From Candidatus Woesearchaeota archaeon (GTDB lineage: Archaea; Nanobdellota; Nanobdellia; Pacearchaeales; GW2011-AR1), in contig CAZSGW010000001.1 of the NCBI GenBank assembly GCA_964606775.1, positions 90,002 to 152,714 on the forward strand: 62,713 nucleotides of DNA. The letters run 5' to 3'. Within the stretch, counting starts at the first letter, position 1, and the number at the start of each line of letters is the position of its first letter. Both the position numbers and the translations under genes were made by a program. Below the pieces are notes generated by a model, which did no database searches, was not told where the DNA came from, and saw only the letters and a list, made by a program, of their open reading frames with translations. Positions 29,980-44,262 of this stretch are shown here, piece by piece.

Positions 29980-30792
29980 CTATAATAGAAATATAAGTAT
30001 TATAAAACTAATAAAGAAAACAGGCACATAAGGAATTCCTTCTCTAATGTATACATCCTTGTTCTTTTTCCTCAATAATTCGATATCTTTTTTATTCAAT
30101 CCATTCCAAGTCGCATTAATTTTTTTAGAACCAATCTTAACATCCCTATACAACCAATCACCTTCAGTTAATTTATTTGGAGAAATTTTTTTAACCATAC
30201 AACTTTCATCGACAGACTTTGCGGCTAAAAACAAATAAGGAACTAAAAATACCAAGACTGCAAAAAAAAGCAAACTACTTTCAACAAAAGAAAAAACAAT
30301 CATCACAATAGCTAAAATTAAAACACTAAAAACCAAAGTTTTATTTTTGTTAAATTGTTTAGAAAATTCTTTTCTAAATTTTTTGTAATTTCTAATCGCC
30401 AAATAACCGGTGGAAAATAAACCATACAATGCTCCACTAAACAAGAATAAAAGAATGAATGTAAAAAAAACATTTAAATTGCCTGAAAAATCCGGATAAA
30501 AAGCAAGAACAGGACCAATTGCAACAAACAACTTTGAATCTCCTCCTGCAAACATTCTTCCAAAATAAAGTAAATTACTAAACACAAAAAAAATTCCCAG
30601 TGCAATCAAACCCTGATAAAAAAATCCAAAATCCTCTCCAGAAAAAAGAGAATAAAAAAATCTAAAACCCAATGCAAAAATTATCAAAGAAAAACTAACC
30701 CAATTAGCAATTTCCCTCTTTCTTAAATCCTGTATACTTGCAACTAAAAGCCAAATAACCCCTAAAACAATTAATCCAATAACTTCAATCAT
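29980..30792 (-). CDS. A24-family prepilin/preflagellin peptidase (PibD/FlaK/EppA-like)
   Basis: 270 aa and polytopic. The first catalytic Asp context is SIQDLRKREIANWV and the second is FAGGDSKLF (GxGD-type). It is embedded among pilin-like genes. Confidence 0.8.
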   Translation of the reverse strand: MIEVIGLIVLGVIWLLVASIQDLRKREIANWVSFSLIIFALGFRFFYSLFSGEDFGFFYQGLIALGIFFVFSNLLYFGRMFAGGDSKLFVAIGPVLAFYPDFSGNLNVFFTFILLFLFSGALYGLFSTGYLAIRNYKKFRKEFSKQFNKNKTLVFSVLILAIVMIVFSFVESSLLFFAVLVFLVPYLFLAAKSVDESCMVKKISPNKLTEGDWLYRDVKIGSKKINATWNGLNKKDIELLRKKNKDVYIREGIPYVPVFFISFIILIFLL

Positions 30793-30820
30793 AAATTATA
30801 AAATAAAAATCAGTTTATAA

Positions 30821-30952
30821 TTATTTCTTATCCTTACCCAAGTTTTCTTTATTACTTCTATACTTTCCACCTCTCTTATACGGATGCTTTTTTTTCTCTT
30901 TCTTTTTGTCCTTTCTTTTATTTCTCTTATCACAACCAGAACTATAAGCCAT
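30821..30952 (-). CDS. 43-aa highly basic micro-ORF (speculative)
   Basis: Not in the track. MAYSSGCDKRNKRKDKKKEKKKHPYKRGGKYRSNKENLGKDKK. Its ATG (30950-30952) starts 1 nt after the stop of the upstream pilin-like gene, the same tight spacing seen throughout the operon. Confidence 0.3.
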   Translation of the reverse strand: MAYSSGCDKRNKRKDKKKEKKKHPYKRGGKYRSNKENLGKDKK

Positions 30953-30953
30953 T

Positions 30954-31622
30954 TTACTTCATAATCAAACATCTCTGTCCCGAACCTAAATCGTTCGCCA
31001 ACAAAGAAACATCATAAGCACCTTCTTCATTTGAAATTGATTGACTACTTCCCAAACACTCGCTATTCTCCCAATCACATCCAACCTCGATACAATCATC
31101 CGAGTTAGAAAATTCAGAACACTCTTTAAGTCCTTGAGACTTTGGAGCATCTATACATGCATCATTTATCCATTTACATCCTCTTAAAAGAGTACAATCA
31201 TCCGAAGTCAAAATATCTGAACAAGCCCCAATATTCTGGCTAACTTCTTTAATCTCACCTGTCTTTCCATTTATCTCTAAATTATTACAATTTTGTTTAC
31301 AGTCAAAATCCGATTCTTCAATACCATATTTCTCAAATTCATCGACGACCGCTAAAATAGCACAAGTAGTTTCAACTTCCTCTCCTTCAAATTTCAAATC
31401 CTGAGTCTTATAACAAAAATTAGTATCACCTCCAGTCGTAGCCGAAGCCATACAAGCATTTTTTATTTGATCAACATTATCTTGAGAAAGCCAAGGAGCA
31501 ATCTGTCCCCAACCTTGTGTAAAACCTATAATCAAAATAACAAGAATCGCAATCCCCAATACCAAAAGAATAATTGTACTAGTGCTCATACCTTGAGCCT
31601 TCTTATTACCTCTTTCTAACAT
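30954..31622 (-). CDS. class III signal-peptide (pilin-like) protein with Cys-repeat C-terminal region
   Basis: The track start at 31631 is a TTG; the first ATG is at 31620-31622. The N-terminus MLERGNKKAQGMSTSTIILLVLGIAILVILIIGF is followed by a Cys-rich ectodomain with CSDILTSDDCTLLRGCKWINDAC and CSEFSNSDDCIEVGCDWENSEC repeats. Confidence 0.65.
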   Translation of the reverse strand: MLERGNKKAQGMSTSTIILLVLGIAILVILIIGFTQGWGQIAPWLSQDNVDQIKNACMASATTGGDTNFCYKTQDLKFEGEEVETTCAILAVVDEFEKYGIEESDFDCKQNCNNLEINGKTGEIKEVSQNIGACSDILTSDDCTLLRGCKWINDACIDAPKSQGLKECSEFSNSDDCIEVGCDWENSECLGSSQSISNEEGAYDVSLLANDLGSGQRCLIMK

Positions 31623-31717
31623 ACTAAACAATAGATTATTTTATTTATAAAACTTTCTCAATCATAATCCCAATAAAAAAATAGAATTACTCAAATAAAT
31701 AACAAACTTAAATAGAA

Positions 31718-32071
31718 TCAATCTGCATAATGCTTTGCTGAAAACAAAAATTCTTTATTTTTCCAATCGTCAAAATCAAATTGAAAATTTGTTTTAGTTT
31801 TATTAATTTCAAAATATTCATCTTCACCCTCAACATAATAAAAATCTCCCTCTCCCAATTCAGATAAAATTGAATTCTTATCATAACCTTCGCTAACATA
31901 CACCTCATATTTTTCAACATTGGTGTCAAGTTTTTCCATTAAATCAAGTCCGACAAAATTTCTCTCCATTCGAACTTCAGCAATATAAAAACTCAAAAGA
32001 GCCAAACTACAAATTGCAAAAACTCCGATTACCAAAATTGTTATAGGAACATCCCCTCTCTTATTTTTCAT
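31718..32071 (-). CDS. class III signal-peptide (minor pilin-like) protein
   Basis: 117 aa. MKNKRG-DVPITILVIGVFAICSLALLSFY. It overlaps the upstream gene by 11 nt. Confidence 0.6.
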   Translation of the reverse strand: MKNKRGDVPITILVIGVFAICSLALLSFYIAEVRMERNFVGLDLMEKLDTNVEKYEVYVSEGYDKNSILSELGEGDFYYVEGEDEYFEINKTKTNFQFDFDDWKNKEFLFSAKHYAD

Positions 32072-32402
32072 CTTCCTCCAGATTAGTTTTTAATTCTTCG
32101 AACTCCTTTTCAAAATCTCCATAAAAACTTTTATTCTCATCCATCTCTTCCAACTTAGAATACAAGAATTCTTTATCCTCTCCCTCATCTAAAGAAAAAT
32201 AAGTTATCAAAGACTTAGTCATCAACAAATCAGAATTTCTCGAATAAATATCTGACAAACCAGAACTCTTAGCATACTCAAATTCATTCTGTTTAGATAG
32301 AAGATTAGTCGCAAAAATCGCCAAGAACAAAATAAAAATAATAACAAGAGTTGCAACTATCCAAGTCATCGTTTCTCCTGCCTGCCCAGATTTATTTAAC
32401 AT
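32061..32402 (-). CDS. class III signal-peptide (minor pilin-like) protein
   Basis: 113 aa. MLNKSGQAGETMTWIVATLVIIFILFLAIF. It overlaps both neighbours by 11 nt. Confidence 0.55.
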   Translation of the reverse strand: MLNKSGQAGETMTWIVATLVIIFILFLAIFATNLLSKQNEFEYAKSSGLSDIYSRNSDLLMTKSLITYFSLDEGEDKEFLYSKLEEMDENKSFYGDFEKEFEELKTNLEEDEK

Positions 32403-32892
32403 TTTGTTTTACTTTCCTTACAATAGATAGGATTTTTACTTCATACAAATTTTTATTTTCATCCAAGGAATAAAATTTTCTCTCAACACACTTAGACAAT
32501 TCTTCATAATCCTCATCTTCAATATTACAATCCAATTTCAGATTAAAATTGCCTTCCTTTGCAATCAAATGATTTTTACCATTCGAAAAATTAAGAATAT
32601 TCAATTCTAAATAATATTCCGAACCTTTTTCAGAATCACTTTCAAAAACCTCTTCCTTAAACTTACAATAATTTAAAACATTAAAATCTTTCTCAAAAAT
32701 TTCCGAATTCAAAACTTCCTGTTCTGAAATACATCTTGTAACTTTATTAACCATCAAATTGCCTTCAATTTCACGAACATCATAAGGAGAATTATAAAAA
32801 ATGCTTACCATCGAGACAACTGCCCCAGCTACAATCAATAAAACTGCAAACCAATAAACAGAAATTATCTTATCTGCCCCTTTTTTGTTCAT
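32392..32892 (-). CDS. class III signal-peptide (pilin-like) protein
   Basis: 166 aa. MNKKGADKIISVYWFAVLLIVAGAVVSMV. There is an ATGA overlap with the upstream gene at 32889-32892. Confidence 0.6.
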   Translation of the reverse strand: MNKKGADKIISVYWFAVLLIVAGAVVSMVSIFYNSPYDVREIEGNLMVNKVTRCISEQEVLNSEIFEKDFNVLNYCKFKEEVFESDSEKGSEYYLELNILNFSNGKNHLIAKEGNFNLKLDCNIEDEDYEELSKCVERKFYSLDENKNLYEVKILSIVRKVKQNVK

Positions 32893-33302
32893 TTTTCATT
32901 TACACTGATAATGTAATTACCAGTATTTTCATTTAATTCATTTTTTTCCGGATAAGCCGTTACAAAAACGTCATTAAAGAAAGAATATTCATAGCCTCCC
33001 TTCTCACTAAGCCTCACAAAAACAGAATTCTCCTTAATTAAAACAATTTCCTCAAACATCAAATCATTCTTCTCAGACAATTCCAATCCTTTTTCCATAT
33101 TAATTTTTATTTGGGTAACAGGCTCTGCAGAATCTATCAATAAAGCAATCTGTTTAGAATAACTTTGTTCCATTAGAACAGCTCCAGTACCCTGTTTCCA
33201 TAAAAAGACCATTAAGATTGTAAGAAATAAAGAATTTAAAACAATAAAAATAACATTCTCCACAAGAACCATTCCTTTTTTATTTTTAGATACCTTAAAC
33301 AT
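32889..33302 (-). CDS. class III signal-peptide (pilin-like) protein
   Basis: The track start at 33308 is a TTG; the ATG at 33300-33302 gives MFKVSKNKKG-MVLVENVIFIVLNSLFLTILMVFLW. An SD-like AGAGGT lies 9-14 nt upstream. Confidence 0.6.
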   Translation of the reverse strand: MFKVSKNKKGMVLVENVIFIVLNSLFLTILMVFLWKQGTGAVLMEQSYSKQIALLIDSAEPVTQIKINMEKGLELSEKNDLMFEEIVLIKENSVFVRLSEKGGYEYSFFNDVFVTAYPEKNELNENTGNYIISVNEK

Positions 33303-33338
33303 ATTCAAAACCTCTTCACATATTTAAACAGAATAAAT

Positions 33339-33358
33339 AATTAATAAAACTTTGTAAA
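33339..33358. promoter_or_regulatory. 20-nt exact repeat in an internal pilin-operon promoter region
   Basis: AATTAATAAAACTTTGTAAA is identical to 38604-38623. It sits in the only sizeable gap of the pilin gene string (33303-33366). Confidence 0.5.
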
Positions 33359-33366
33359 AACAAAAA

Positions 33367-34314
33367 CTAAGCAAGGGTTTCAATATCTGCACAATTCAAA
33401 ATTTTAAAACTATCCGAATCCGCCTTTTGAATAGTCGGGGCCATAAATTCATTTTTAATTCCATCACCTTTAACAATTATTGCTCCAATCTGAGGTTCAA
33501 AAGATTCTGCAATTTCTCCTCCTGCAGTTAATGTAGCTGCCCCTGTTCCAAAAATAATTGCACTTGTAACCAAATTAACTCCTGGTATAAATAAACTAAC
33601 AACCCCTACTCCAGTAACAGCACCACCAAACCACTTATAAAAATTTCCAACTTCACTAGTAATTCCCATAATAACATAGTATTGTTCTCCAACATCAATA
33701 TCTCCAAAAGTCCCAATATTCTCCGGATTATTTTCACCTCCAATAATCTCCTGTTTCAAAGATTGGATATCATTAGTTCCTAAAATATACTCTGCATATG
33801 TCTGGTCTCCAGAATAATTATTTTTACTCATATAATCATAAAGACCATCTTTACTTATCTCTCCTTCAACTTCATTCAAATTATTCAAACTATCATCAAA
33901 ATAAATTTGTGAACAAATAGAACAATAATTTTTTTTAGATGCTTTATCTCCAACATAATCCAATTTTCCTGCTCCAAACATCCACCAACAAACAGCCATT
34001 TCCTCAGAAAGAACTTCATAAAGTTCATCCCTCGTTTCAACTTCAATCTCTTCGGGATTTGTCATTCCCTCGCAAGTTCCATCCTCCGTGATACAAATAT
34101 AAGTTCTTTCACATTGAAGACTGGTGGACTTTGGAGTCAAAGCCTGAGACTTAGTTAAAACAGAATTATGGCATAACTCTCTCGCAGATTCCTGTCCAAA
34201 ATTCAAACCAAATAAAAAATATAAAACAACGATAAAACTAGTTATCAGAATAATTAAAATAATTATTTGCTGTGTACTTATTTCTCCTTTTTTTCCAAAA
34301 AGATTTTTTCTCAT
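33367..34314 (-). CDS. class III signal-peptide protein with large ectodomain and extra C-terminal hydrophobic segments
   Basis: 315 aa. MRKNLFGKKGE-ISTQQIIILIILITSFIVVLYFLF is followed by a Cys-containing globular part, then a Gly-rich hydrophobic stretch GGAVTGVGVVSLFIPGVNLVTSAIIFGTGAATLTAGG. Confidence 0.6.
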   Translation of the reverse strand: MRKNLFGKKGEISTQQIIILIILITSFIVVLYFLFGLNFGQESARELCHNSVLTKSQALTPKSTSLQCERTYICITEDGTCEGMTNPEEIEVETRDELYEVLSEEMAVCWWMFGAGKLDYVGDKASKKNYCSICSQIYFDDSLNNLNEVEGEISKDGLYDYMSKNNYSGDQTYAEYILGTNDIQSLKQEIIGGENNPENIGTFGDIDVGEQYYVIMGITSEVGNFYKWFGGAVTGVGVVSLFIPGVNLVTSAIIFGTGAATLTAGGEIAESFEPQIGAIIVKGDGIKNEFMAPTIQKADSDSFKILNCADIETLA

Positions 34315-34416
34315 CTATGCAACCCCCAATTTTTTTAAAGCGAAGTATAACCCAACCGAAACAATTCCAAAAAAGACAATCCATATTAAATATTTTATTA
34401 CATTATCAAGATTCAT
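34315..34416 (-). CDS. 33-aa single-TM micro-ORF
   Basis: Not in the track. MNLDNVIKYLIWIVFFGIVSVGLYFALKKLGVA. Its ATG overlaps the stop of gene 34413-34892 (ATGA), and its TAG directly abuts the ATG of 33367-34314. Confidence 0.5.
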   Translation of the reverse strand: MNLDNVIKYLIWIVFFGIVSVGLYFALKKLGVA

Positions 34417-34892
34417 TTTACTTCCTCAAGTTTAATTCCTTCTTCCATTTCAATAACCTCAATATCCGTAGCCCCTTCATTTGTTTCTTTAATTTCAATA
34501 ATTTCAAATCCCAAAAGATTTTCAACGACTAAACATCTTCCATCTTTCTGACACTCTTTTAATTGTCTATTTCCAAAAACTCCAGCATAATTGGTAGAAA
34601 TTTCATCACAAATGCAAATACATTTCTTTCCAGCACACTGATTAGGTTTACTCTTTTCACTAAAATTAAAAATACTCCATCCAGTAGGAGTCACCCCCTT
34701 CAACTCTCCGCCCCCTTCACCAATTTTTATTTCAATCTGTTCTAAAGTGGCTTCAGCCTGATTTTGTTTTTTTTCATCCAAATTAGAAAAATATAAAGAA
34801 GTCAAAAAATAAGCCAAAAAACCAATACAAATAACTGCAATAACAATTTTTAAAGTTTCTTCAGCCAACAAAAAACCTTTCTTATTTCTCAT
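34413..34892 (-). CDS. type IV pilin-like protein (candidate major pilin)
   Basis: The track start at 34904 is a TTG; the ATG at 34890-34892 overlaps the upstream stop (ATGA). MRNKKG-FLLAEETLKIVIAVICIGFLAYFL has G then F at +1 and E at +5, as in bacterial type IV prepilins. The small globular head carries 6 Cys. Confidence 0.7.
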   Translation of the reverse strand: MRNKKGFLLAEETLKIVIAVICIGFLAYFLTSLYFSNLDEKKQNQAEATLEQIEIKIGEGGGELKGVTPTGWSIFNFSEKSKPNQCAGKKCICICDEISTNYAGVFGNRQLKECQKDGRCLVVENLLGFEIIEIKETNEGATDIEVIEMEEGIKLEEVK

Positions 34893-35038
34893 ATTAGACT
34901 CCAAAAAATCCCTCCCAGTCCACTAAAAAAAGCATTAATTTTATCTCTAAAGAAAAAATAAAGTGCGATAACAACTGTAACAAAAACAGCTACTCCCAAA
35001 ATAATTTTTATTAATCTACTTATTGCTAACTCTGCCAT
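34889..35038 (-). CDS. 49-aa single-TM micro-ORF
   Basis: Not in the track. MAELAISRLIKIILGVAVFVTVVIALYFFFRDKINAFFSGLGGIFWSLI, translated base by base. It is coupled on both sides (TAATG at 35036-35040, ATGA at 34889-34892). Confidence 0.5.
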   Translation of the reverse strand: MAELAISRLIKIILGVAVFVTVVIALYFFFRDKINAFFSGLGGIFWSLI

Positions 35039-35208
35039 TATGTTCTGAATAACCCCTTAATTTTATCAATCAATGAAAAGCCTTGTTCTCTCAATAAAAA
35101 AATAGTCGTCATAATAATTGCCAGAACAGCAATACCAATCAACAACCATGGCAAATATTCTGAAACTAAACCTCTCTTCTCTTTCAAATTAAAACAACTC
35201 TTTTTCAT
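35038..35208 (-). CDS. 56-aa class III signal-peptide-like micro-ORF, first gene of the pilin operon
   Basis: Not in the track. MKKSCFNLKEKRG-LVSEYLPWLLIGIAVLAIIMTTIFLLREQGFSLIDKIKGLFRT. A KRG motif precedes the hydrophobic helix. Confidence 0.5.
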   Translation of the reverse strand: MKKSCFNLKEKRGLVSEYLPWLLIGIAVLAIIMTTIFLLREQGFSLIDKIKGLFRT

Positions 35209-35230
35209 AAAAATAAATAAGAAAAGAGAT

Positions 35231-35248
35231 TAATAAATCTTTAGAAAA
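35231..35248. promoter_or_regulatory. shared 18-nt promoter-region motif, copy at the pilin operon
   Basis: TAATAAATCTTTAGAAAA lies 23-40 nt upstream of the ATG at 35208 (minus strand). On the minus strand it reads TTTTCTAAAGATTTATTA, which contains a TATA-like TTTATTA. Related copies are at 35353-35370, 33342-33359 and 38607-38624. Confidence 0.45.
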
Positions 35249-35309
35249 TTTATTTTCGAACAAAAATAGTTTTCTTTTACACTGTAATCTTAAGTTTTCT
35301 ACCACTGTA

Positions 35310-35329
35310 GTTTCTTTTTCAAAAGAAAC
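35310..35329. repeat. 9-bp perfect inverted repeat (hairpin) in the divergent intergenic region
   Basis: GTTTCTTTT-TC-AAAAGAAAC read directly. It is preceded by two CACTGTA direct repeats (35280-35286 and 35303-35309). Confidence 0.5.
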
Positions 35330-35372
35330 CCATTTTTCTAAAAGAAAAACCCAAATAAATCTTTAGAAAATA

Positions 35373-35380
35373 TTTAAAAG
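35373..35380 (+). promoter_or_regulatory. TATA-like box upstream of the FISUMP-domain gene
   Basis: TTTAAAAG lies 22-29 nt upstream of the ATG at 35402, immediately after the 18-nt motif copy at 35353-35370. Confidence 0.35.
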
Positions 35381-35401
35381 TATAAAGGACACTCAAAGTT
35401 T

Positions 35402-36391
35402 ATGGAAATATTAACAAAATTGTCAAAACTCCCTTTAATAGGAAAAGTAGCGGGAGTGGTTGGAACAGTAGCAATTATTTCAGCTCCAATAATTTACTCA
35501 ATTACCGGAAATAAACAAGAAGCAAAAGAGAAAAAAATAGAAAGAAAAGAATGGTGGGAAGAACAATCAGAAAAATCAAAAGTAGTTTTTGGTGAAGGGT
35601 ATCTAAAAGATGGCTATTCTGTTTTTGATCCTAACCCCGAATATGAACCAAGAACAAAAGTTCAAGATGCTGTAAAAACAGGACTTTATGTTTTATCAGA
35701 CAACCTCTCTGGATCTTCTGAGATTTTAGATGGAATAGAATTAGCTATTGAAACAGAAAACAAAATAAAAGAAAATCTTGAAACCAAAGCTCAAAAAAAA
35801 CCAATTAAAAAAGAAAAAACAAAGGGAACATTTACAGACAAAAGAGATAATCAAGAATATAAATGGGTAAAAATAGGAGACCAAATTTGGATGGCTGAAA
35901 ATTTAAATTATTCAACTTCTTACGGTTCTTGGTGTTATGATAATAAAAAATCGAATTGTGAAACATACGGAAAACTTTACAATTGGAATGTAGCTCTAAA
36001 ATCTTGTCCTAAAGGATGGCATCTGCCTTCAAATGATGATTGGGAAAAACTTGGAAAATACATTAGTAAAGATAATGGAGGATATAATCAAACTAAAGGA
36101 GATTGGGAAAAAATAGGAATGCATCTTAAATCTAAAACAGGTTGGAGATTACCTTACATAAGTTCAGTAAAAGGAACTGATGATTATGGATTTTCCGCAC
36201 TAGGAGGGGGTTATCGTAGTGATGATGGAAAACTAATGAGCGGCTTAAAAATTATGGGAAATTGGTGGACTTCAAGTAAAAAAGATATAAAGAATGCTTT
36301 TTCACGTACTATATATGATGAAGGAAAATTATTCAAAGAAAGTTATCCTAAACAAGGAGGATATAGTGTCCGTTGCATAAAAAATAAATAA
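35402..36391 (+). CDS. membrane-anchored protein with a FISUMP (Fibrobacter succinogenes major paralogous) domain
   Basis: 329 aa with an N-terminal TM (GKVAGVVGTVAIISAPIIYSI). The C-terminus FTDKRDNQEYKWVKIGDQIWMAENLNY...CYDNKKSNCETYGKLYNWNVALKSCPKGWHLPSNDDWEKL...GTDDYGFSALGGGYR...WWTSS...GYSVRCIK matches the FISUMP consensus almost position by position. Confidence 0.8.
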   Translation: MEILTKLSKLPLIGKVAGVVGTVAIISAPIIYSITGNKQEAKEKKIERKEWWEEQSEKSKVVFGEGYLKDGYSVFDPNPEYEPRTKVQDAVKTGLYVLSDNLSGSSEILDGIELAIETENKIKENLETKAQKKPIKKEKTKGTFTDKRDNQEYKWVKIGDQIWMAENLNYSTSYGSWCYDNKKSNCETYGKLYNWNVALKSCPKGWHLPSNDDWEKLGKYISKDNGGYNQTKGDWEKIGMHLKSKTGWRLPYISSVKGTDDYGFSALGGGYRSDDGKLMSGLKIMGNWWTSSKKDIKNAFSRTIYDEGKLFKESYPKQGGYSVRCIKNK

Positions 36392-38572
36392 CTACAAATT
36401 ACCCAATACAACTGAGCTCAAGATAAACAATACCAAAACAGCAATTAAAGCAACCACAAAGTATAACCCGATACCTCGCTTCAAATTCACCCCAATTTTA
36501 TGAGCTTTCTCAAGTTTATCTTCTCCTGAATCTACTGTAACCAAAGTCCCAGTTAAAATAAAAATTATCTGAACTAAATAAATTCCAATCGCAATTTGCA
36601 AATAATAAGGAGGAATCATAGAACTCATACTGAACGTCTCCAAGAAACCTCCAAGACCTCCAAGAGCTTCAGCACTTCCTGTTGCACCTTTTGCAATTTC
36701 TAATTTATTCAAAATAGAAGTTATCATTGCTGCTAAACCAACAACAATACCTGAAAGCAAAGGCGCTAAAAAAGTCATATTACTCTTCATACTAGAAACT
36801 GTTTCCGCAAGTAAATCTTTCAACCTCTGGGTTATTTTGCTTATATTCTTCGCATACTCTGAAATACTCATTAAACTTATTGCTGCAATCTTCAAACCTT
36901 TCTTAGAAGCTTCAACTAAAATTCTCATACTACTCGCAATCAAATCCGAAGGGTAATACTGAATAGCCCCTCTCCTCCTATCAAAAATTGCTTTCTCAAC
37001 ACTCATCCCCATTTGGCGGATATTATAATTAACCCTCTTAAAAAATTCTCCAGTCCTCAAGCCTTTTGCAGATTCAGCAACTTTTCCAAAAACAAGCTCG
37101 GGAGGAACACCATTACCCAAACGATTTCCTAATTGAAATAAAGAATTATTAAATTCGGCCTCTAATTGTTTAGTTTTCTTTCTTTCCTTAATTAGCTCCT
37201 TAGTCCTTTCCCTATAAGCAATAGAATAAAATAAAGCCACTCCAAGAGGAATGAACAAACTCAAAAAAACAGCGCCAATACCATAGGGTCCAGAACCATC
37301 TTCCTTAAAATCAAAAAAGTAAACTCTTCCATCAGGATCAAAAGAAGTCAAACCAACCTGAGATAAAGTAAAATCCTTTTGCATTCCAAGCGCCTCTGGA
37401 ATTGGAGTAAACTGGAAAATCAAAGGAAGAAGACCTAAAATCAAAAAAGGTAAACAAATCACAAAGGCAGTAGTATAAGGTTTCTTACTCTTAAATTTAT
37501 AATAAAGAGGGTTTCTTTCAAGTAACTTGGACTCTCCATAACCTCCTGGCCTCAACAACAAAATTTTATCTATCATAAAAAATGCAATAAAAGGAATCAG
37601 TAAATTATACAAAACAAAAATATGGATTGCTGTAATGAAATCACCCACTAAGGCGGAAGCCAAAGGAATCAAAGCAATACCTAAAACTGGAAGCATAACT
37701 GCCAACATGTAAACATTAGTCAAGGGAGACTTTACATTGTGACTAAATTTCAACATCTTATCGTAAACCCCGTCTAAAACAACTTGTAAAGACTTTTCCA
37801 AAGTGGAAATCCTTCGAGAATTATCTGGCTCGAATAAACTACTCTCAATTAAATGAAAAGCTTCAATAAATTCAACAGAATAATCTCTCCAAGTTTCAAG
37901 ATAACCATCTAAACTCTCCTTAATGGTAGAAAACTTTCCAACCTCCACATCATAAAACACCTTCTTGAAATCAAGAGCTAAAGGATCTTGCAAATTATCA
38001 GAAGTGAATGCTATTGCCTTTTCTAAATTAGGAGTATGTCTCATATAAACAACAACATACAACAAAGCTGGAACCATTTGACTCGAGGCCTTAAGTCTCC
38101 ACTTATTAGCCAATCTTGCAGGATAACCATTAACATAATAAAACAAAAAAACGGAGGCAAACAAAACCAACATAAAGAAACCAAGAGGAAATGCGGAAAT
38201 ACTTCCTTTAATCAAAACAACAGCAATAGAAGATAATAAACCAACAAAAAATATTGCCAAAAAAGACATAACTCCTAATGCTAAAGCCTCCGAAGGCCTA
38301 ACATCTAAATGTGCAATATCCAATTGTTTTTGAACTTTTTGAGCATCTTTCTCAGAAACCTTAAAATTAATTGATTTTCCCAAACTCTTAGCCAATTTCT
38401 CATATCTTGAAAGTTCAGGAGACATCTCTTTCTTAAAACCAACATAAGAACTACTATAAGCCGAAGAACTTGCAGAAGGCGATGAATCTATTTTTTTCTC
38501 AATCTGCCCCCCATATTTCTTGAGAACATCCTTCACGCTGGGTCTTTTACCTCTCGGAATTCTTCTTGCCAT
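36392..38572 (-). CDS. polytopic membrane protein, candidate pilus platform (TadC/FlaJ/PilC-like)
   Basis: 726 aa. Many TM helices are separated by soluble helical regions. It is divergent from the secretion ATPase and flanked by pilin genes. GAGGTGA (SD) lies 5 nt upstream of the ATG. The assignment rests on context and topology, not on a recognised motif. Confidence 0.5.
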   Translation of the reverse strand: MARRIPRGKRPSVKDVLKKYGGQIEKKIDSSPSASSSAYSSSYVGFKKEMSPELSRYEKLAKSLGKSINFKVSEKDAQKVQKQLDIAHLDVRPSEALALGVMSFLAIFFVGLLSSIAVVLIKGSISAFPLGFFMLVLFASVFLFYYVNGYPARLANKWRLKASSQMVPALLYVVVYMRHTPNLEKAIAFTSDNLQDPLALDFKKVFYDVEVGKFSTIKESLDGYLETWRDYSVEFIEAFHLIESSLFEPDNSRRISTLEKSLQVVLDGVYDKMLKFSHNVKSPLTNVYMLAVMLPVLGIALIPLASALVGDFITAIHIFVLYNLLIPFIAFFMIDKILLLRPGGYGESKLLERNPLYYKFKSKKPYTTAFVICLPFLILGLLPLIFQFTPIPEALGMQKDFTLSQVGLTSFDPDGRVYFFDFKEDGSGPYGIGAVFLSLFIPLGVALFYSIAYRERTKELIKERKKTKQLEAEFNNSLFQLGNRLGNGVPPELVFGKVAESAKGLRTGEFFKRVNYNIRQMGMSVEKAIFDRRRGAIQYYPSDLIASSMRILVEASKKGLKIAAISLMSISEYAKNISKITQRLKDLLAETVSSMKSNMTFLAPLLSGIVVGLAAMITSILNKLEIAKGATGSAEALGGLGGFLETFSMSSMIPPYYLQIAIGIYLVQIIFILTGTLVTVDSGEDKLEKAHKIGVNLKRGIGLYFVVALIAVLVLFILSSVVLGNL

Positions 38573-38603
38573 ATCTTCACCTCAAAAAATACAAGAAGAA
38601 ATT

Positions 38604-38623
38604 AATTAATAAAACTTTGTAAA
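38604..38623. promoter_or_regulatory. 20-nt exact repeat in the promoter region of the platform gene
   Basis: AATTAATAAAACTTTGTAAA is identical to 33339-33358. It lies 32-51 nt upstream of the ATG at 38572 (minus strand) and carries TTTTATTAA on the coding strand. Confidence 0.5.
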
Positions 38624-38729
38624 CCCTGCTAAAAAATACAAACAAAAAAATTTATTCAACAAAATATCTTATTTTTAATTCCAACCATATTTTGATTATA
38701 CAAAATGTTTTAAATTAATTCTTCTTCAA

Positions 38730-41018
38730 ATGTTTATGCAATTTGAACAAGGGGCGCCTTTGTATTCTACAGAGGTTTCTAGAGAAGGGGGTGAAGATGT
38801 TTTATACATCAATTATCTAGGAGCTCCTTTCGTTCCAAGCCTAGCCGAACACGATTTTGTTATGGAAAAAACTGTGGATTCTTTAATGGAAAATCCAAAT
38901 GTTTCAAGAATTGTTTTTGTTCAGCAAAAAAACTACAACTATGATTTTGAAGAAACGAGGATGTTATTAGAACTTGCCGAATTTTACACCTACTTAATTA
39001 AACAAGAAAAAATTTTATCTCAAGAAAAAATAGGTAATTCTCAATTTTTTTCTAAAAGATATAACTCCCTTTTCTCATTTTTACTTTTATTGAAGAAAGA
39101 TCCTCTTGCAAGTTATAGCGAATTAAAAAAAATGATTTATGAACAAAGAATTTTTTCAGAAAAAGTTGGAGGTCATCTCAAATTAGACGTAGAAAATTAT
39201 CTAAACCTGCTTGAAAAAATATTATTTCTTTTTGAAAAAATTAAAATTATTGAAAATATAAAACCTTTTATAGGAGACTATTCCCGAGGAGACAGAGAAA
39301 TTTACTCCCGTCTGTTCAGGGCAGATGTTATTCCAAATTTTTCTTTTACACGTTTAGTCTCAGATTTGCCCAATGATGCAGAAATTATAGACCAATATGA
39401 AATAGTTGGTGAAGATTACGATAAATCTCTCGTTACAATCTTACGATTAAAAGGAGAATCTAAATTAATGTACCATTTAACTCCTCCAGAACATACACTT
39501 GACGAAGACCACAACACGCTTTTAAATTTAGCGAGAGGTGTTTTGATTGAACACCAACCCAAAGCCGAAGAATTTACAGATGTCGAAAGAATCAGACAGG
39601 TTTTCTTCAACATCGCAAGAGATTTATTAAGGGATTTAGGGGAAAGTAAAGGAATAATTTTATCTTATCCAGATTTAAATAAATTAGCAAAAATCTTGGT
39701 TAGAAGCACTATTGGTTTTGGCCTAATAGAGGTTTTGTTACAAGATAAAAAAATTCACGATATTTCTCTAAACTCTCCAATCCCTCAGGTTCCAGTTTAT
39801 ATTAGACACAGAGATTATGATGAATGCCTTTCAAATATTCGTCCAAGTCAGGAAGACGCAGACTCTTGGGCTGCAAAATTTAGGATGATTTCAGGAAGGC
39901 CATTAGATGAAGCAAATCCCATTTTAGATACTCAATTAGAAATTGGAAAACTAAGGGCCAGAATTGCAATCATCCAAAAACCTCTCTCAGTAGATGGATT
40001 GGCCTATTCAATTAGACGTCACAGAGAATCTCCATGGACTCTCCCTCTTTTTGTCCAAAACAGAATGCTTAATCCTTTCGCCGCAGGGTTATTTAGTTTT
40101 TTAATTGACGGCTCGAGAACGTTATTGGTTGCTGGAACTAGAAGTTCAGGAAAGACATCTTTGTTAGGAAGTTTATTATTGGAAATTATTCCTAAATTTA
40201 GAATTATTGTTGTTGAAGATACATCAGAATTGCCTGTTGAATCTTTGAGAAAATTAGATTATAATATTATTCGAATGTTAGTTCGTTCTGCTATGATGAA
40301 AGGAGAAGCGGGAGTTTCTGCGGATGATGGGATTAGGACAAGTTTACGTTTGGGTGATTCGGCTTTGATAGTTGGAGAGATTAGAAGTCAGGAAGCTAAA
40401 GCACTTTATGAGGCAATGAGGGTTGGAGCATTAGCAAACGTGGTTGCCGGAACAATTCACGGTGCTTCACCGTATGGGGTTTTCGATAGGGTTGTTAATG
40501 ATTTAAATGTACCTGCTACATCCTTCAAAGCTACCGATTTGATAACCGTTTGCAATCCAGTTAAATCTCCAGATGGCTTACAATCGTGGAAGAGGTGTGT
40601 AAGATTATCTGAGATTAGAAAACACTGGAAAGAGGATCCTCTAAAAGAACAAGGTTTTGTAGATTTAATGAAATATAATGTGGAAAAAGACGAGCTTGAA
40701 CCCAGTGAAGATTTAATCAATGGAGATAGCGAGATAATAAAAGACATTGCTTCAAGCGTTAAAGGATGGGCGGGCAATTGGGATGCTGTTTATGATAATG
40801 TTTTACTAAGAGCGAAAATGAAAAAAGAAATTGTAGAAGTTTCAAAGAAAGCTGGAAATCCAGACATCCTTGAAGCAAAATTTAATACTCTTGCAAATCA
40901 TCAGTTTCATAAAATTTCTTCAGAAGTTTCTAAAGAGATTGGAATTCCTTCTAGCGAGAGAGTTTTTCCTGAGTGGCAAAAATGGTTGAATCAGGAAGTT
41001 AAGAAATGGGGCATTTAG
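38730..41018 (+). CDS. type II/IV secretion family ATPase (FlaI/VirB11/TadA-like) with a long N-terminal extension
   Basis: 762 aa. Walker A is LLVAGTRSSGKTSLLGSLL and Walker B is RIIVVEDTSEL. GEIRSQEA and AGTIHGASP (His box) are also present. A second ATG at 38736 is also possible. Confidence 0.85.
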   Translation: MFMQFEQGAPLYSTEVSREGGEDVLYINYLGAPFVPSLAEHDFVMEKTVDSLMENPNVSRIVFVQQKNYNYDFEETRMLLELAEFYTYLIKQEKILSQEKIGNSQFFSKRYNSLFSFLLLLKKDPLASYSELKKMIYEQRIFSEKVGGHLKLDVENYLNLLEKILFLFEKIKIIENIKPFIGDYSRGDREIYSRLFRADVIPNFSFTRLVSDLPNDAEIIDQYEIVGEDYDKSLVTILRLKGESKLMYHLTPPEHTLDEDHNTLLNLARGVLIEHQPKAEEFTDVERIRQVFFNIARDLLRDLGESKGIILSYPDLNKLAKILVRSTIGFGLIEVLLQDKKIHDISLNSPIPQVPVYIRHRDYDECLSNIRPSQEDADSWAAKFRMISGRPLDEANPILDTQLEIGKLRARIAIIQKPLSVDGLAYSIRRHRESPWTLPLFVQNRMLNPFAAGLFSFLIDGSRTLLVAGTRSSGKTSLLGSLLLEIIPKFRIIVVEDTSELPVESLRKLDYNIIRMLVRSAMMKGEAGVSADDGIRTSLRLGDSALIVGEIRSQEAKALYEAMRVGALANVVAGTIHGASPYGVFDRVVNDLNVPATSFKATDLITVCNPVKSPDGLQSWKRCVRLSEIRKHWKEDPLKEQGFVDLMKYNVEKDELEPSEDLINGDSEIIKDIASSVKGWAGNWDAVYDNVLLRAKMKKEIVEVSKKAGNPDILEAKFNTLANHQFHKISSEVSKEIGIPSSERVFPEWQKWLNQEVKKWGI

Positions 41019-41052
41019 TTAATTTTATTAATTATCCTTTATTGTTATTTCT

Positions 41053-41871
41053 ATGAAGAAATTAAGTGTTTTATTTTTATTTGTTTTTTGCTTGAGTTTC
41101 ATTAGTGCGAATTCTGTTGTTTTTCACTTGAGTAATGAAAATGTTTTAGTAGAATATAAGTTGGAAGAGGTTTATGATTTAGAGATTGAACTTCCTTCTA
41201 ATGTTAAGGCCTTGGAAGTTAATAAAGAGTATTCTTTTGAAAAAGACATTTTAAAAGTTGATGAAGGAAGGGATGTAGAAATAAAATATATTTCTAATTA
41301 TTATGTAGAGAAAACTTCCAAAGGTAATTATTTTGTTTTTAATTTTGCTTTAAATGTTTCACATGTTAAAGTCTATTTGCCCGAGGGTTCCAAGTTGTCA
41401 GAAAATAAATTAATTTTTCCAGAGATTGAGAGTATTTCTAGTGATGGTTACAACATTATTTTAGAATGGAATAATTTTGATGAAAATGAAATTTTAGTTT
41501 CCTATGAATTTGTAGATGACGATAATTCTTTGTTTGTTTTTATTTTGATTGTAGGTGTTCTTTTCATTATTTTTCTTTTTTCAAACAAAATTGTAAAAAT
41601 GCTCCAAAGAAAAAAGGGTGTAAATGTTCGCTTTAAGGATAAGGACGGAGAGTTGTTAGGTCTGACTAAAAATTTGTTTGAAGATGAAAAAAAGATTGTT
41701 GAGTATTTGTATGGTAAAAAAGATAATGAGTCCTGGACTAAAGAAATCATAAAAGATTTGGGGATTAGTAAAGTAAAATTAAGTAGAAAGTTAAGAAGTT
41801 TGGAACAAAAGGAATTGATTAAAAGAATTCCTTACGGGAATGAAAATCGTATTCGGTTGTTAAAAAAGTGA
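41053..41871 (+). CDS. bitopic membrane protein: extracellular beta-rich domain, one TM, cytoplasmic winged-HTH
   Basis: 272 aa. It has a signal (MKKLSVLFLFVFCLSFISANS) and a TM (LFVFILIVGVLFIIFLFS). After a basic stretch comes EDEKKIVEYLYGKKDNESWTKEIIKDLGISKVKLSRKLRSLEQKELIKRIPYGNENRIRLL, which is MarR/ArsR-type wHTH-like. Confidence 0.65.
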   Translation: MKKLSVLFLFVFCLSFISANSVVFHLSNENVLVEYKLEEVYDLEIELPSNVKALEVNKEYSFEKDILKVDEGRDVEIKYISNYYVEKTSKGNYFVFNFALNVSHVKVYLPEGSKLSENKLIFPEIESISSDGYNIILEWNNFDENEILVSYEFVDDDNSLFVFILIVGVLFIIFLFSNKIVKMLQRKKGVNVRFKDKDGELLGLTKNLFEDEKKIVEYLYGKKDNESWTKEIIKDLGISKVKLSRKLRSLEQKELIKRIPYGNENRIRLLKK

Positions 41872-41878
41872 GTTGTTT

Positions 41879-41898
41879 CAGGCTGTTAACAGGCTGTT
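41879..41898. repeat. tandem direct repeat CAGGCTGTT-AA-CAGGCTGTT
   Basis: Read directly. It is relatively GC-rich, has an 11-nt period, lies just after the stop of the wHTH gene, and contains a GTTAAC palindrome at the junction. Confidence 0.5.
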
Positions 41899-41996
41899 TC
41901 ACGAATTAATTAAATAGTTTTTTTTCTTAGATGTTTTATGAAAAATCAAAGGGTCTTAGGCTCTGCATTTTACAGAAGTGTAAGGAGGTTAAAAAA

Positions 41997-42980: not shown

Positions 42981-43165
42981 AACCAATTTTTATTTTTTTT
43001 TATTTTTTTATTTATTCTTAAAAAATTTATTCCGCATTTCGAGCATACCAATTTTACCAAAACAATCTGATTTTCAAATAAAAACAAAAAATTCAGAAAA
43101 TCAAAAGCTAACTGAAAAAATATCTAAATAAAAACAAATTTAAACTTACTTAAACTTAATATCAT

Positions 43166-43486
43166 ATGGCAGACGATGAAAATTACATGGATCAGGCTTA
43201 CAATGAAACAAATCTAAAGTTCAACGATATAGAGCAAAAACAAAGAATTCTAAAAGACAGACTATTGTTGGTGGGACAAAACCTAATAGATACAAAACAA
43301 GAAACATCAGAAAAAATCCTTGAGATAAAAAAAGAAATTGAAGAATTACACGAAAGTTTTGAAAAAGTAAAAAGATTCATAGAAAACATTTCAAAGGAAC
43401 TTCCAAAATTTGCAAAAAAAGACGATGTAGAAATACTTGCAAAACAAGCAAAGATGTTCGAACCTCTCGAATCATTAAAAAGATAA
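43166..43486 (+). CDS. coiled-coil protein
   Basis: 106 aa. Its C-terminal part (ISKELPKFAKKDD) resembles the end of 43517-44227 (FSKTLPEFAKKYN). Confidence 0.5.
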   Translation: MADDENYMDQAYNETNLKFNDIEQKQRILKDRLLLVGQNLIDTKQETSEKILEIKKEIEELHESFEKVKRFIENISKELPKFAKKDDVEILAKQAKMFEPLESLKR

Positions 43487-43516
43487 AATTAAAAATAAGA
43501 TTTACCTAAAAACAAC

Positions 43517-44227: not shown

Positions 44228-44262
44228 ATTCTTTTTATCTCTCTAAAAAATCTAATCAAAAA

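What the first reader, a model, noticed from the sequence alone, without database searches (positions are those of the whole stretch)
29980..41871. Compact type IV pilus-like locus with an unusually large set of class III signal-peptide genes
Seen in sequence:
- An A24 prepilin peptidase is present (DLRKREI and GGDSKLF Asp motifs).
- Ten consecutive minus-strand genes run from 35208 to 30954. Eight of them begin with basic residues, G/A and a hydrophobic helix (for example MRNKKG-FLLAEETLKIVIAVI with F+1 and E+5).
- There is a 726-aa polytopic membrane protein and a divergently transcribed FlaI/VirB11-type ATPase (GTRSSGKTSLL, VVEDTSEL, GEIRSQEA, GTIHGASP) with a ~300-aa N-terminal extension.
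- Directly downstream lies a TM-anchored wHTH protein.
- Most genes overlap by ATGA, TAATG or 11 nt.

Established knowledge: peptidase, pilins, platform and ATPase define archaeal type IV filament systems (Aap/Ups/Epd/archaellum).

Inference: the pilin repertoire is much richer than in those systems. It ranges from 33-56 aa micro-proteins to 315 aa and includes one with Cys-repeat lectin-like modules and one with additional C-terminal hydrophobic segments. The embedded FISUMP protein and regulator are also unusual. Together these suggest an adhesion or host-contact filament that may be a distinct subtype.
Basis: partly seen in the sequence, partly recalled or inferred. Interest (0 to 1): 0.7.

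Follow-up and report, generated by a model that had tools for sequence, protein, structure and literature searches.

The report
Conserved Pacearchaeota type IV pilus operon
This is a real type IV pilus-like gene cluster that hundreds of tiny symbiotic (DPANN/Pacearchaeota) archaea share almost gene for gene; in some relatives its pilin genes carry bacterial cell-wall-cutting enzymes, which hints that the filament is used to grip or breach bacterial hosts.

Summary
The window has an A24 prepilin peptidase, ten tightly packed minus-strand genes, a 726-aa polytopic protein and a T2SSE ATPase. Eight of the ten genes start with the same N-K-[KR]-[GA] leader plus a hydrophobic helix.

The 726-aa protein gets no direct Pfam hit. 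It is T2SSF-like by transitive profile evidence and by its predicted fold.

The cluster is not a one-off. The order ATPase, platform, 56-aa pilin, eight to nine further small genes, peptidase recurs in most of 80 related Pacearchaeota/Woesearchaeota loci. At least 343 species representatives encode the platform.

The FISUMP gene, the Cys-rich WxxW gene and (in 76 of 80 loci) the membrane wHTH gene are missing from relatives. They are local insertions, not system parts. The divergent ATPase is a window-specific inversion.

Hamm et al. 2024 already reported conserved CpaF/TadC pilus-like loci with coiled-coil genes in this DPANN group, so the system's existence is not new.

What appears undescribed:
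- the fixed set of eight orphan pilin families;
- two leaderless micro-proteins;
- in 12 relatives, lytic-transglycosylase or amidase modules fused to pilin orthologues.

Verdict: a new variant of a known kind, of moderate interest.

The parts
38730..41018 (+). Secretion/assembly ATPase (762 aa), archaeal GspE/CpaF/FlaI branch, with an unassigned N-terminal extension of about 200 aa. It is inverted here relative to relatives.
   Evidence: Pfam T2SSE 5.7e-14. NCBIfam TadA-family 125 bits and FlaI 124 bits, both far below their cut-offs. PDB: 2oap 1.3e-25, CpaF 4.5e-25, FlaI 9e-17. About 74% identical across Pacearchaeota. Co-directional with the platform in 54 of 58 relatives.
36392..38572 (-). 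Polytopic platform protein (726 aa), a divergent T2SSF/TadC/FlaJ-type protein with two T2SSF-like repeats.
   Evidence: No direct Pfam hit. 32 of 66 distant members hit T2SSF, best 3.2e-10. Hits map to both halves. PDB profile top hit is GspF, E = 0.056. AF2 pLDDT 89. Foldseek matches EpsF/OutF/PilC domains at prob 0.96-1.0. More than 3000 homologues at about 70% identity.
35038..35208 (-). 56-aa pilin (about 43 aa when mature), leader ...KRG|LVSEYLPW. Candidate major subunit, Flp-sized.
   Evidence: First gene after the platform in relatives, with a gap under 50 nt in 22 of 39. Most conserved of the eight leader-bearing pilin families, median 60% identity; only the leaderless 33-aa micro-protein scores higher (62%). 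Consensus K-k-G|I-i-S-E-Y-L-P-W. No PDB or Pfam pilin hit.
34889..35038 (-). 49-aa single-TM micro-protein without a leader. Paralogue of the 33-aa protein.
   Evidence: Found in 26 loci. hhalign probability 91% against tm33. Called as a gene in L081.
34413..34904 (-). 163-aa pilin, NKKG|FLLAEETLK (F+1, E+5), with six invariant Cys. The likely start is the ATG at 34892.
   Evidence: Alignment of 28 orthologues. Found in 59 loci. Only the N-terminal helix gives weak PDB hits.
34315..34416 (-). 33-aa single-TM micro-protein without a leader.
   Evidence: Found in 49 loci, median 62% identity. Called in L081.
33367..34314 (-). 315-aa pilin, KKG|EISTQQ. It has a conserved Cys-rich domain (DCWWMFGEGK, YCSIC) and a Gly/Ala-rich hydrophobic insert that some orthologues lack.
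   Evidence: Alignment A5. No PDB or Pfam relatives.
32889..33308 (-). 139-aa pilin, NKKG|MVLVEN (E+5).
   Evidence: Found in 53 loci. Orthologues in L044, L054 and L055 carry an SLT domain.
32392..32892 (-). 166-aa pilin, NKKG|ADKIISVYWF.
   Evidence: Found in 51 loci. Orthologues in L078, L042 and L031 carry Amidase_2.
32061..32402 (-). 113-aa pilin, NKSG|QAGETMTW (family consensus NKKA|QiGETiTW).
   Evidence: Found in 26 loci. A pil113-like protein in L027 carries Amidase_2.
31718..32071 (-). 117-aa pilin, NKRG|DVPITILVIGV.
   Evidence: Found in 40 loci. Orthologues in L064, L047, L060 and L061 are fused to an SLT lytic transglycosylase. About 80 near-full-length clusters of this fusion in the database, by my rough count of rows with query cover of about 90% or more.
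30954..31631 (-). 225-aa pilin, NKKAQG|MSTSTIILL, with a window-specific Cys-rich C-terminal extension. Orthologues are mostly 104-195 aa.
   Evidence: Found in 41 loci. The C-terminus has no family hit.
29980..30792 (-). A24 prepilin peptidase (270 aa), FlaK/TadV-like short form.
   Evidence: Pfam 1.5e-10. Catalytic D22 and D85 conserved. Terminal gene of the cluster in 40 of 44 loci.
35402..36391 (+). FISUMP-domain membrane protein. A local insertion between the platform and the pilin operon, not a conserved part.
   Evidence: TIGR02145 9e-49. Present in 0 of 80 related loci.
41053..41871 (+). Membrane-anchored wHTH protein. A sub-lineage accessory gene and possible regulator.
   Evidence: DUF7343 at its threshold, plus weak TrmB/MarR hits. 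Present in 4 of 80 loci. In L020 it lies between the ATPase and the platform.
43166..44227 (+). Two coiled-coil-type genes (106 aa at 43166-43486 and 236 aa at 43517-44227). In relatives they sit next to the ATPase and are transcribed divergently from it. Probably the 'CCP' genes of Hamm et al.
   Evidence: Present in 51 of 80 loci at the same position. Only weak hits, all to coiled-coil families. They share an LPxFAKK motif. Literature.

Best explanation
The locus encodes the lineage-wide type IV filament machine of Pacearchaeota/Woesearchaeota-type DPANN archaea.

Proposed mechanism:
1. The A24 aspartic peptidase cuts the N-K-[KR]-[G/A] leader from eight pilin precursors. (Inferred.)
2. The hexameric CpaF/GspE-type ATPase, docked on the two-repeat T2SSF-type platform, extracts the mature pilins from the membrane and polymerises them through their N-terminal helices. 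(Inferred from the family.)
3. The 43-aa mature product of the first gene, which is Flp-sized, is the most likely bulk subunit. (Inferred.)
4. The seven larger pilins form a priming or tip complex. Their C-terminal domains are exposed and act as interchangeable carriers of binding or enzymatic modules. (Inferred.)
5. The filament mediates contact with another cell, probably a bacterium. (Inferred from relatives.)

Shown here: gene identities, leader motifs, conservation, synteny, and the hydrolase fusions in relatives.

Not part of the machine: the FISUMP, WxxW and wHTH genes, which are contig- or sub-lineage-specific additions.
For: All four core parts are present:
- ATPase.
- Platform.
- Peptidase with conserved catalytic Asp residues.
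- Eight pilin families that share only an N-terminal segment of 30-47 aa, as type IV pilins do (hhalign probabilities up to 93%), with a uniform NK[KR][GA] leader.

Synteny and conservation:
- The operon order ATPase, platform, small pilin, larger pilins, peptidase is conserved in relatives.
- An independent annotation calls the same genes in the same order (L081).
- The ATPase (72% median identity) and platform (67%) are more conserved than every flanking gene (44-59%), which indicates strong selection.

Host contact:
- 12 related loci have SLT or Amidase_2 modules fused to orthologues of the 117-, 139-, 166- and 113-aa pilins.
- The pil117-SLT fusion forms about 80 clusters, by my rough count of near-full-length rows, named from Pacearchaeota/Nanoarchaeota.
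- Archaea have no murein, so these modules imply a bacterial target (inference). Large SLT proteins had already led to the same host hypothesis (Castelle et al. 2021).
- Hamm et al. 2024 describe homologous loci with coiled-coil genes in this clade and propose host interaction.
Against: - No filament has been seen or purified from any Pacearchaeote. Cleavage of the leaders is untested.
- The window's own pilins carry no recognisable enzyme or lectin module.
- The 56-aa protein has no detectable similarity to Flp or to any solved pilin. Calling it the major pilin rests on size, position and conservation only.
- Gene dosage is one copy each, which fits a short pseudopilus equally well.
- The roles of the two leaderless micro-proteins and of the ATPase N-terminal extension are unexplained.
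- The sequence link between the coiled-coil neighbours and the Nanohaloarchaeum CCPs was not tested.
Confidence: 0.6

Rival explanations
1. A bindosome-like or pseudopilus surface-display system. The same machinery builds only a short membrane-proximal stub. Its job is to anchor and present class III-signal proteins (enzymes, binding proteins) at the cell surface or to push them out, as in the Sulfolobus Bas system or a bacterial T2SS, rather than to make a long adhesive pilus.
For: - Many different pilin-like proteins have globular domains, each at single gene dosage.
- Enzyme modules are fused to the pilins in relatives.
- The window holds two further large proteins with the same leader, 604 aa and 243 aa, encoded elsewhere. 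They resemble bindosome substrates.
- The ATPase gives a full-length-type alignment to the NCBIfam BasE model, 65.8 bits over residues 217-699.
- The gene order is the same as T2SS gspE-F-G-H-I-J-K...O (my own knowledge).
Against: - The BasE score is far below its cut-off of 1000 and lower than the TadA and FlaI scores.
- A highly conserved 43-aa mature pilin with no head domain is what thin Flp-type filaments are made of. It has no obvious role in display.
- No secretin or S-layer conduit is needed in a cell with a single membrane.
Confidence: 0.22
2. A competence (Com-like) DNA-uptake pilus. The filament binds and reels in extracellular DNA to feed nucleotide salvage in an organism that lacks nucleotide biosynthesis.
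For: - The operon layout mirrors comGA-GB-GC...GG plus comC (my own knowledge).
- Pacearchaeota are proposed to live on scavenged nucleotides (Castelle et al. 2021 abstract).
- The ATPase is CpaF-like. In Caulobacter, CpaF powers both extension and retraction (my own knowledge).
Against: - No ComEC, ComEA or DprA-type gene was recognised among the window proteins scanned. Not every ORF was scanned.
- The NCBIfam ComGA score is only 40 bits against a cut-off of 300.
- Murein-hydrolase pilins point to cell walls, not DNA.
Confidence: 0.08
3. A reduced archaellum or another motility organelle.
For: The NCBIfam FlaI model aligns over residues 301-703 at 124 bits. JGI names some homologues 'FlaI'.
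Against: - The FlaI score is far below its cut-off of 550.
- There is no FlaH/KaiC-like, FlaX, FlaCDE or archaellin (PF01917) gene in the locus or in the scanned neighbours.
- AfGspE and CpaF are closer than FlaI by sequence.
Confidence: 0.03

Closest known systems
Conserved type IV pilus-like loci of cluster-2 DPANN (Hamm et al. 2024, Nat Commun, PMC11291902, Fig. 4)
   Same: - Same taxa are named: Pacearchaeota and Woesearchaeota.
- CpaF-like ATPase plus TadC-like platform.
- Small coiled-coil genes next to the ATPase. In the window these are 43166-44227, conserved in 51 of 80 relatives.
   Different: - As far as the text read shows, that paper does not describe the ten-gene pilin/micro-protein operon, the dedicated peptidase at its end, or hydrolase-bearing pilins.
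- A direct sequence link to the Nanohaloarchaeum loci was not tested here.
Bacterial Tad/Flp pilus (CpaF/TadA, TadB+TadC, Flp, TadV)
   Same: - The ATPase is as close to CpaF as to any solved protein (4.5e-25).
- The peptidase is the short form without a methyltransferase domain.
- The first pilin is Flp-sized, with a G|xxxEY motif one residue shorter than Flp's G|xxxxEY.
   Different: - The platform is a single 726-aa two-repeat protein, not separate TadB and TadC.
- No secretin, TadZ or TadD.
- Seven larger pilins with globular domains.
- The TadA-family score is 125 bits against a cut-off of 373.
- The pil56 profile finds no Flp.
Euryarchaeal adhesion pili (Haloferax PilB/PilC with PilA1-6; Methanococcus Epd pili) as classified by Makarova, Koonin and Albers 2016
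   Same: - Archaeal ATPase plus a fused TadC-type platform plus several class III pilins plus an A24 peptidase.
- Some archaeal pilins also have an acidic residue near +5.
- Regulators and surface proteins are often attached to such loci.
   Different: - None of the pilins hits Pfam archaeal pilin families.
- The EppA model scores 16 bits against a cut-off of 450.
- Gene order and pilin families are specific to this DPANN clade.
- That 2016 census could not find the cognate pilins for nanoarchaeal ATPases.
Modular type IV pilins of bacteria (Raynaud et al. 2021, PNAS, PMC8179133)
   Same: A functional module is grafted onto the C-terminus of a pilin module for presentation by the filament. This is the architecture seen in the SLT- and Amidase_2-pilins of the related loci.
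   Different: - That survey covered bacteria. Its main text mentions no archaea, transglycosylase or amidase modules.
- Here the carriers are archaeal, and the modules target a wall polymer that the producer lacks.
T2SS / ComG operons
   Same: Gene order: ATPase, platform, small major (pseudo)pilin, several minor pilins, peptidase.
   Different: - The ATPase belongs to the archaeal/Tad branch. The ComGA model scores 40 bits and PilT 22 bits.
- No secretin and no ComEC.

Membership tests
Type IV filament (TFF) superfamily | PilB/GspE/FlaI-family hexameric ATPase (Pfam T2SSE) | tested here: met
   T2SSE 52 bits against a cut-off of 24.9. Walker A GTRSSGKT, GEIRS and GTIHG boxes seen in the sequence. 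PDB 2oap, CpaF and FlaI hits.
Type IV filament (TFF) superfamily | Polytopic platform of the T2SSF/PilC/TadC/FlaJ family with two repeats | tested here: met
   Indirect. The window protein itself gives no hit. 32 of 66 family members do, best 3.2e-10, with hits in both halves. Foldseek matches EpsF/OutF/PilC domains at prob 0.96-1.0. Self-alignment of the two halves is weak, probability 26%.
Type IV filament (TFF) superfamily | Subunits with a class III signal peptide (short basic leader ending in G/A, then about 20 hydrophobic residues) | tested here: met
   Eight families with a conserved NK[KR][GA] leader. Enrichment p = 2e-6. Similarity among the families is confined to the N-terminus. FlaFind/PilFind were not available, and cleavage is untested.
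Type IV filament (TFF) superfamily | A24 aspartic prepilin peptidase with two catalytic Asp residues | tested here: met
   Pfam A24 above its cut-off. D22 and D85 (GGD) at least 95% conserved.
Archaellum | FlaI equivalog score; FlaH, FlaF/G, FlaX or FlaCDE; archaellin subunits | tested here: not met
   FlaI 124 bits against a cut-off of 550. No archaellin, FlaH or KaiC hit in the locus or the scanned neighbours.
Bacterial Tad/Flp pilus | TadA equivalog; separate TadB and TadC; Flp pilin family (G|xxxxEY); secretin RcpA; TadZ | tested here: not met
   TadA-family 125 bits against a cut-off of 373. The platform is a single fused protein. pil56 has G|xxxEY but no Flp_Fap or PDB hit. No secretin or TadZ among the genes.
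Methanococcus Epd pilus | EppA-type peptidase and EpdA-E pilins | tested here: not met
   EppA model 16 bits against a cut-off of 450. The pilins have no family hits. No Epd pilin references were available for direct comparison.
Sulfolobales Aap / Ups pili | AapE/UpsE ATPase clade, AapF/UpsF, AapX/UpsX, AapA/B or UpsA/B pilins | not testable with these tools
   No reference sequences or models were to hand. ATPase phylogeny was not run.
Sulfolobus bindosome assembly system (Bas) | BasE/BasF equivalogs, BasABC, and class III-signal binding proteins as substrates | tested here: not met
   BasE 65.8 bits against a cut-off of 1000. Two extra class III proteins do exist in the window.
DPANN cluster-2 T4P-like/CCP loci (Hamm et al. 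2024) | CpaF-like ATPase plus TadC-like platform with adjacent coiled-coil protein genes, in Pacearchaeota, Woesearchaeota and related lineages | tested here: inconclusive
   The architecture and taxon match. Homology to the Nanohaloarchaeum antarcticus proteins could not be checked because no sequences were held.

The most novel reading that the evidence does not exclude
The Pacearchaeota filament is a cell-wall-engaging organelle aimed at bacteria. Its minor pilins are a cassette system in which C-terminal effector or binding modules are swapped between lineages: lytic transglycosylase on three different pilin families, muramoyl-alanine amidase on two, and Cys-rich modules in this window. 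On this reading the pilus tip determines host range, and Pacearchaeota are episymbionts or predators of bacteria rather than of archaea. The Flp-sized first pilin and the CpaF-like ATPase would also make this system a living relative of the archaeal ancestor proposed for bacterial Tad pili.
Probability: 0.3. Interest if true: 0.8.

Novelty: new variant of a known kind. Interest (0 to 1): 0.55.

Why it matters
Pacearchaeota and Woesearchaeota are abundant and uncultivated, and their hosts are unknown.

One groundwater study took pili on ultra-small cells as proof that the cells were CPR bacteria. Its stated reason was that type IV pilus components are 'missing in DPANN genomes' (He et al. preprint). 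This locus shows that a complete, strongly conserved pilus operon is present in at least 343 species representatives. Annotation largely misses it, because the platform and all the pilins escape Pfam.

The murein-hydrolase pilins in relatives give a concrete, testable handle on two open questions: what these archaea attach to, and how.

The fixed leader motif and the dedicated peptidase also give a simple rule for finding the rest of the surface proteome.

Tried and rejected
- Direct Pfam/NCBIfam scans of the 726-aa protein found nothing. Close homologues gave only 4 of 28 marginal T2SSF hits. Distant members were needed.
- Self-alignment of the two platform halves was weak (probability 26%). 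I do not use it as evidence on its own.
- PDB profile searches for the 56-, 163- and 315-aa pilin families gave nothing beyond weak hits to the N-terminal helix. PHROGs gave nothing. A Pfam scan of 118 pilin orthologues gave no pilin family. 'Flp-like' therefore remains an analogy, not a membership call.
- The ATPase structure prediction was poor: pLDDT 61, with the core below 50. Foldseek only re-found GspE and CpaF. The N-terminal extension stays unassigned.
- No convincing inverted repeats flank the inverted ATPase block.
- The idea that the Cys-rich tail of the 225-aa pilin is the same module as in the neighbouring WxxW protein was not supported by BLASTP (E = 0.28).
- The exact-sequence look-up of the window platform in the contig index failed. 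A homologue was used instead.
- The supplement of Hamm et al. gave no usable locus table.
- ATPase phylogeny against the Aap, Ups, Epd, FlaI and Tad clades was not possible, because no reference sequences were held.
- Genes inserted at the two hot spots in relatives are heterogeneous. I did not pursue them.

Full report
**What is in the window**

The window is about 30% G+C. It carries ordinary chromosomal genes: SRP54, phosphoglycerate mutase, a DHH phosphoesterase, a DEAD helicase, an M16 peptidase and two tRNAs. Close homologues of its proteins come from MAGs named Candidatus Pacearchaeota, Woesearchaeota or Nanoarchaeota.

- The peptidase (29980-30792, minus strand) passes Pfam Peptidase_A24. 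D22 and D85 are conserved in 43 orthologues.
- The ATPase (38730-41018, plus strand) passes Pfam T2SSE. NCBIfam models for TadA-family and FlaI score 125 and 124 bits, far below their cut-offs.
- Its closest solved relatives are A. fulgidus GspE (1.3e-25), Caulobacter CpaF (4.5e-25) and FlaI (9e-17). About 295 N-terminal residues are unaligned. That makes it roughly 180-200 aa longer than those proteins, not 300.
- Ten minus-strand genes (30954-35208) abut or overlap by 0, 1, 4 or 11 nt at seven of ten junctions (coordinates).
- Eight of the ten begin with a basic leader ending in G/A, followed by about 20 hydrophobic residues.
- A strict pattern finds 7 of 11 genes in the cluster against 2 of 73 elsewhere (p = 2e-6).

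**The platform**

The 726-aa protein has no direct Pfam or NCBIfam hit. It does have more than 3000 homologues at about 70% identity. A profile of these finds 1161 cluster representatives.

- Among 66 distant members (24-44% identical), 32 hit Pfam T2SSF, best 3.2e-10, and four hit the related SpoIIIAB family.
- In individual members the full T2SSF model maps either to the first or to the second half.
- The top PDB hit of the family profile is the GspF cytoplasmic domain (E = 0.056).
- An AlphaFold model (pLDDT 89) matches the EpsF, OutF and PilC cytoplasmic domains. Foldseek probability is 0.96-1.0 and TM-score 0.66-0.75 normalised to the target.
- One distant member's cluster holds an NCBI protein from an Aenigmarchaeota MAG annotated 'type II secretion system F family protein'.

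**Conservation and synteny**

A scan of one genome per GTDB species found 343 loci encoding the platform, and 80 were fetched.

- Where flanks allow, the order is ATPase, platform, 56-aa, (49-aa), 163-aa, 33-aa, 315-aa, 139-aa, 166-aa, (113-aa), 117-aa, 225-aa, peptidase.
- An independent annotation of GCA_030637545.1 calls ten genes of 66, 55, 157, 33, 300, 147, 184, 87, 104 and 163 aa between the platform and the A24 peptidase.
- The ATPase (median 72% identity) and platform (67%) are more conserved than any flanking gene (44-59%).
- The ATPase is co-directional with the platform in 54 of 58 relatives and divergent in none. The window carries an inversion of the ATPase-wHTH block. No flanking repeats were found.
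- FISUMP and the WxxW/Cys-rich protein occur in 0 of 80 loci. The wHTH occurs in 4 of 80.
- The ATPase-platform and platform-pilin junctions are insertion hot spots, with gaps of 15-6836 nt.
- Two coiled-coil-type genes (43166-44227) flank the ATPase in 51 of 80 loci.

**The pilins**

Family consensus N-termini all read N-K-[KR]-[GA] followed by a family-specific mature end:

| Family | Mature N-terminus | Note |
|---|---|---|
| 56 aa | IiSEYLPW | |
| 163 aa | FLLAEETLK | F+1, E+5, six invariant Cys |
| 315 aa | ELTTQQIV | eight conserved Cys, DCWWMFGEGK motif |
| 139 aa | xILxENVIF | E+5 |
| 166 aa | xDKIlSVYWF | |
| 113 aa | QiGETiTW | |
| 117 aa | DIPVTILVIG | |
| 225 aa | QGLSTNAII | |

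- Profile-profile comparison shows that the families share only the first 30-47 residues, as type IV pilins do.
- The 49-aa and 33-aa proteins lack a leader and are paralogues of each other (probability 91%).
- None of the families has a Pfam, NCBIfam, PHROG or PDB relative beyond the helix.

**Functional clue from relatives**

In 12 related loci, orthologues at the same operon positions carry murein hydrolase modules.

- SLT is fused to the 117-aa family (L064, L047, L060, L061), to the 139-aa family (L044, L054, L055) and to another class III protein (L029).
- Amidase_2 is fused to the 166-aa family (L078, L042, L031) and to a 113-like protein (L027).
- Pfam E-values reach 2.8e-16 for SLT and 2.2e-26 for Amidase_2.
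- The pil117-SLT fusion alone has about 80 near-full-length clusters, by my rough count of rows in that table. All carry PF01464 and all are from these archaea.
- The window has no such module.

Because archaea lack murein, these are best read as modules presented to bacterial walls. This is an inference.

**Mechanism**

See Best explanation. The assembly chemistry is inferred from the TFF family. The choice of the 56-aa product as bulk subunit is inferred from its size, its position directly after the platform and its conservation. The host-contact role is inferred from the hydrolase pilins and from the literature.

**Comparison with what is known**

- Hamm et al. 2024 reported two conserved pilus-like loci (CpaF, TadC, coiled-coil proteins) across cluster-2 DPANN, including Pacearchaeota. 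The system's existence is therefore known.
- Makarova et al. 2016 could not find the pilins that go with nanoarchaeal ATPases.
- He et al. (preprint) stated that type IV pilus parts are missing from DPANN.
- Castelle et al. 2021 noted large SLT proteins in these lineages and proposed bacterial hosts.
- Modular pilins are established in bacteria.
- I found no paper that describes this pilin operon or hydrolase-bearing archaeal pilins.

**Verdict**

The locus is a new variant of a known kind. Interest is 0.55.

Noticed in passing
window 1713-3527(-) and 7086-7817(-), with 4949-7084(-) between them: Two paralogous proteins of 604 and 243 aa (BLASTP 7e-19) start with NKRG/YKRG|Q[LV]TIFIIVAILIVA. 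This is the same leader type as the pilin operon 25 kb away. They flank a 711-aa Sec-signal protein. None of the three has a Pfam hit. They are probably further substrates of the same peptidase.
   Followed up: partly
L064:15279-16097, L047:15328-16149, L060:15908-16711, L061:15266-16102, L044:7759-8799, L054:11096-12091, L055:14321-15280, L029:12358-13119, L078:13541-14770, L042:16711-17904, L031:14546-15676, L027:16512-17747: Pilin orthologues in related loci are fused to SLT lytic transglycosylase or Amidase_2 (muramoyl-L-alanine amidase) modules. At least four different pilin families carry them, which implies several independent fusions.
   Followed up: yes
window 38573-43165: The ATPase, wHTH and DUF5667-protein block is inverted relative to the arrangement in 54 of 58 relatives. 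In the closest relative, L020, the order is ATPase, wHTH, platform, all co-directional. No flanking inverted repeats were detected.
   Followed up: partly
window 35402-36391(+) and 28701-29945(-): A FISUMP-domain membrane protein and a Cys-rich Mucin2_WxxW protein with a C-terminal anchor sit at the edges of the pilin operon. Both are absent from all 80 related loci. They are likely recent acquisitions of surface proteins at insertion hot spots.
   Followed up: partly
window 34315-34416(-) and 34889-35038(-): Two conserved paralogous single-TM micro-proteins of 33 and 49 aa, without a leader peptide, are interleaved with the pilins. Their N-termini share a LIK[IY][IL][IL] motif. Their function is unknown. 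One possibility is a leaderless pilin-like or assembly factor.
   Followed up: partly
L031:9351-9830, L027:9232-9687, L042:7995-8507 and ten other loci: Thirteen relatives encode a protein of about 150-200 aa between the ATPase and the platform. It has a helical cytoplasmic N-terminus and two C-terminal TM segments. The window has no homologue.
   Followed up: partly
window 59148-62711(-): A large ORF of more than 1187 aa with a Laminin_G_3 / concanavalin-like domain runs to within two bases of the window's end. It is a giant surface protein of the kind often noted in DPANN.
   Followed up: no
window 43166-44862: Three genes are conserved next to the ATPase in 47-51 of 80 relatives: coiled-coil proteins of 106 and 236 aa, and a 199-aa membrane protein. 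The 236-aa protein has a Q/P/Y-rich low-complexity N-terminal half.
   Followed up: partly
L041:3665-9929 and L057:3663-9927: In two relatives, three large genes of 928, 516 and 644 aa are inserted between the ATPase and the platform. Their N-termini look like UvrA/UvrC/UvrB to me. This is my own recognition and was not tested.
   Followed up: no
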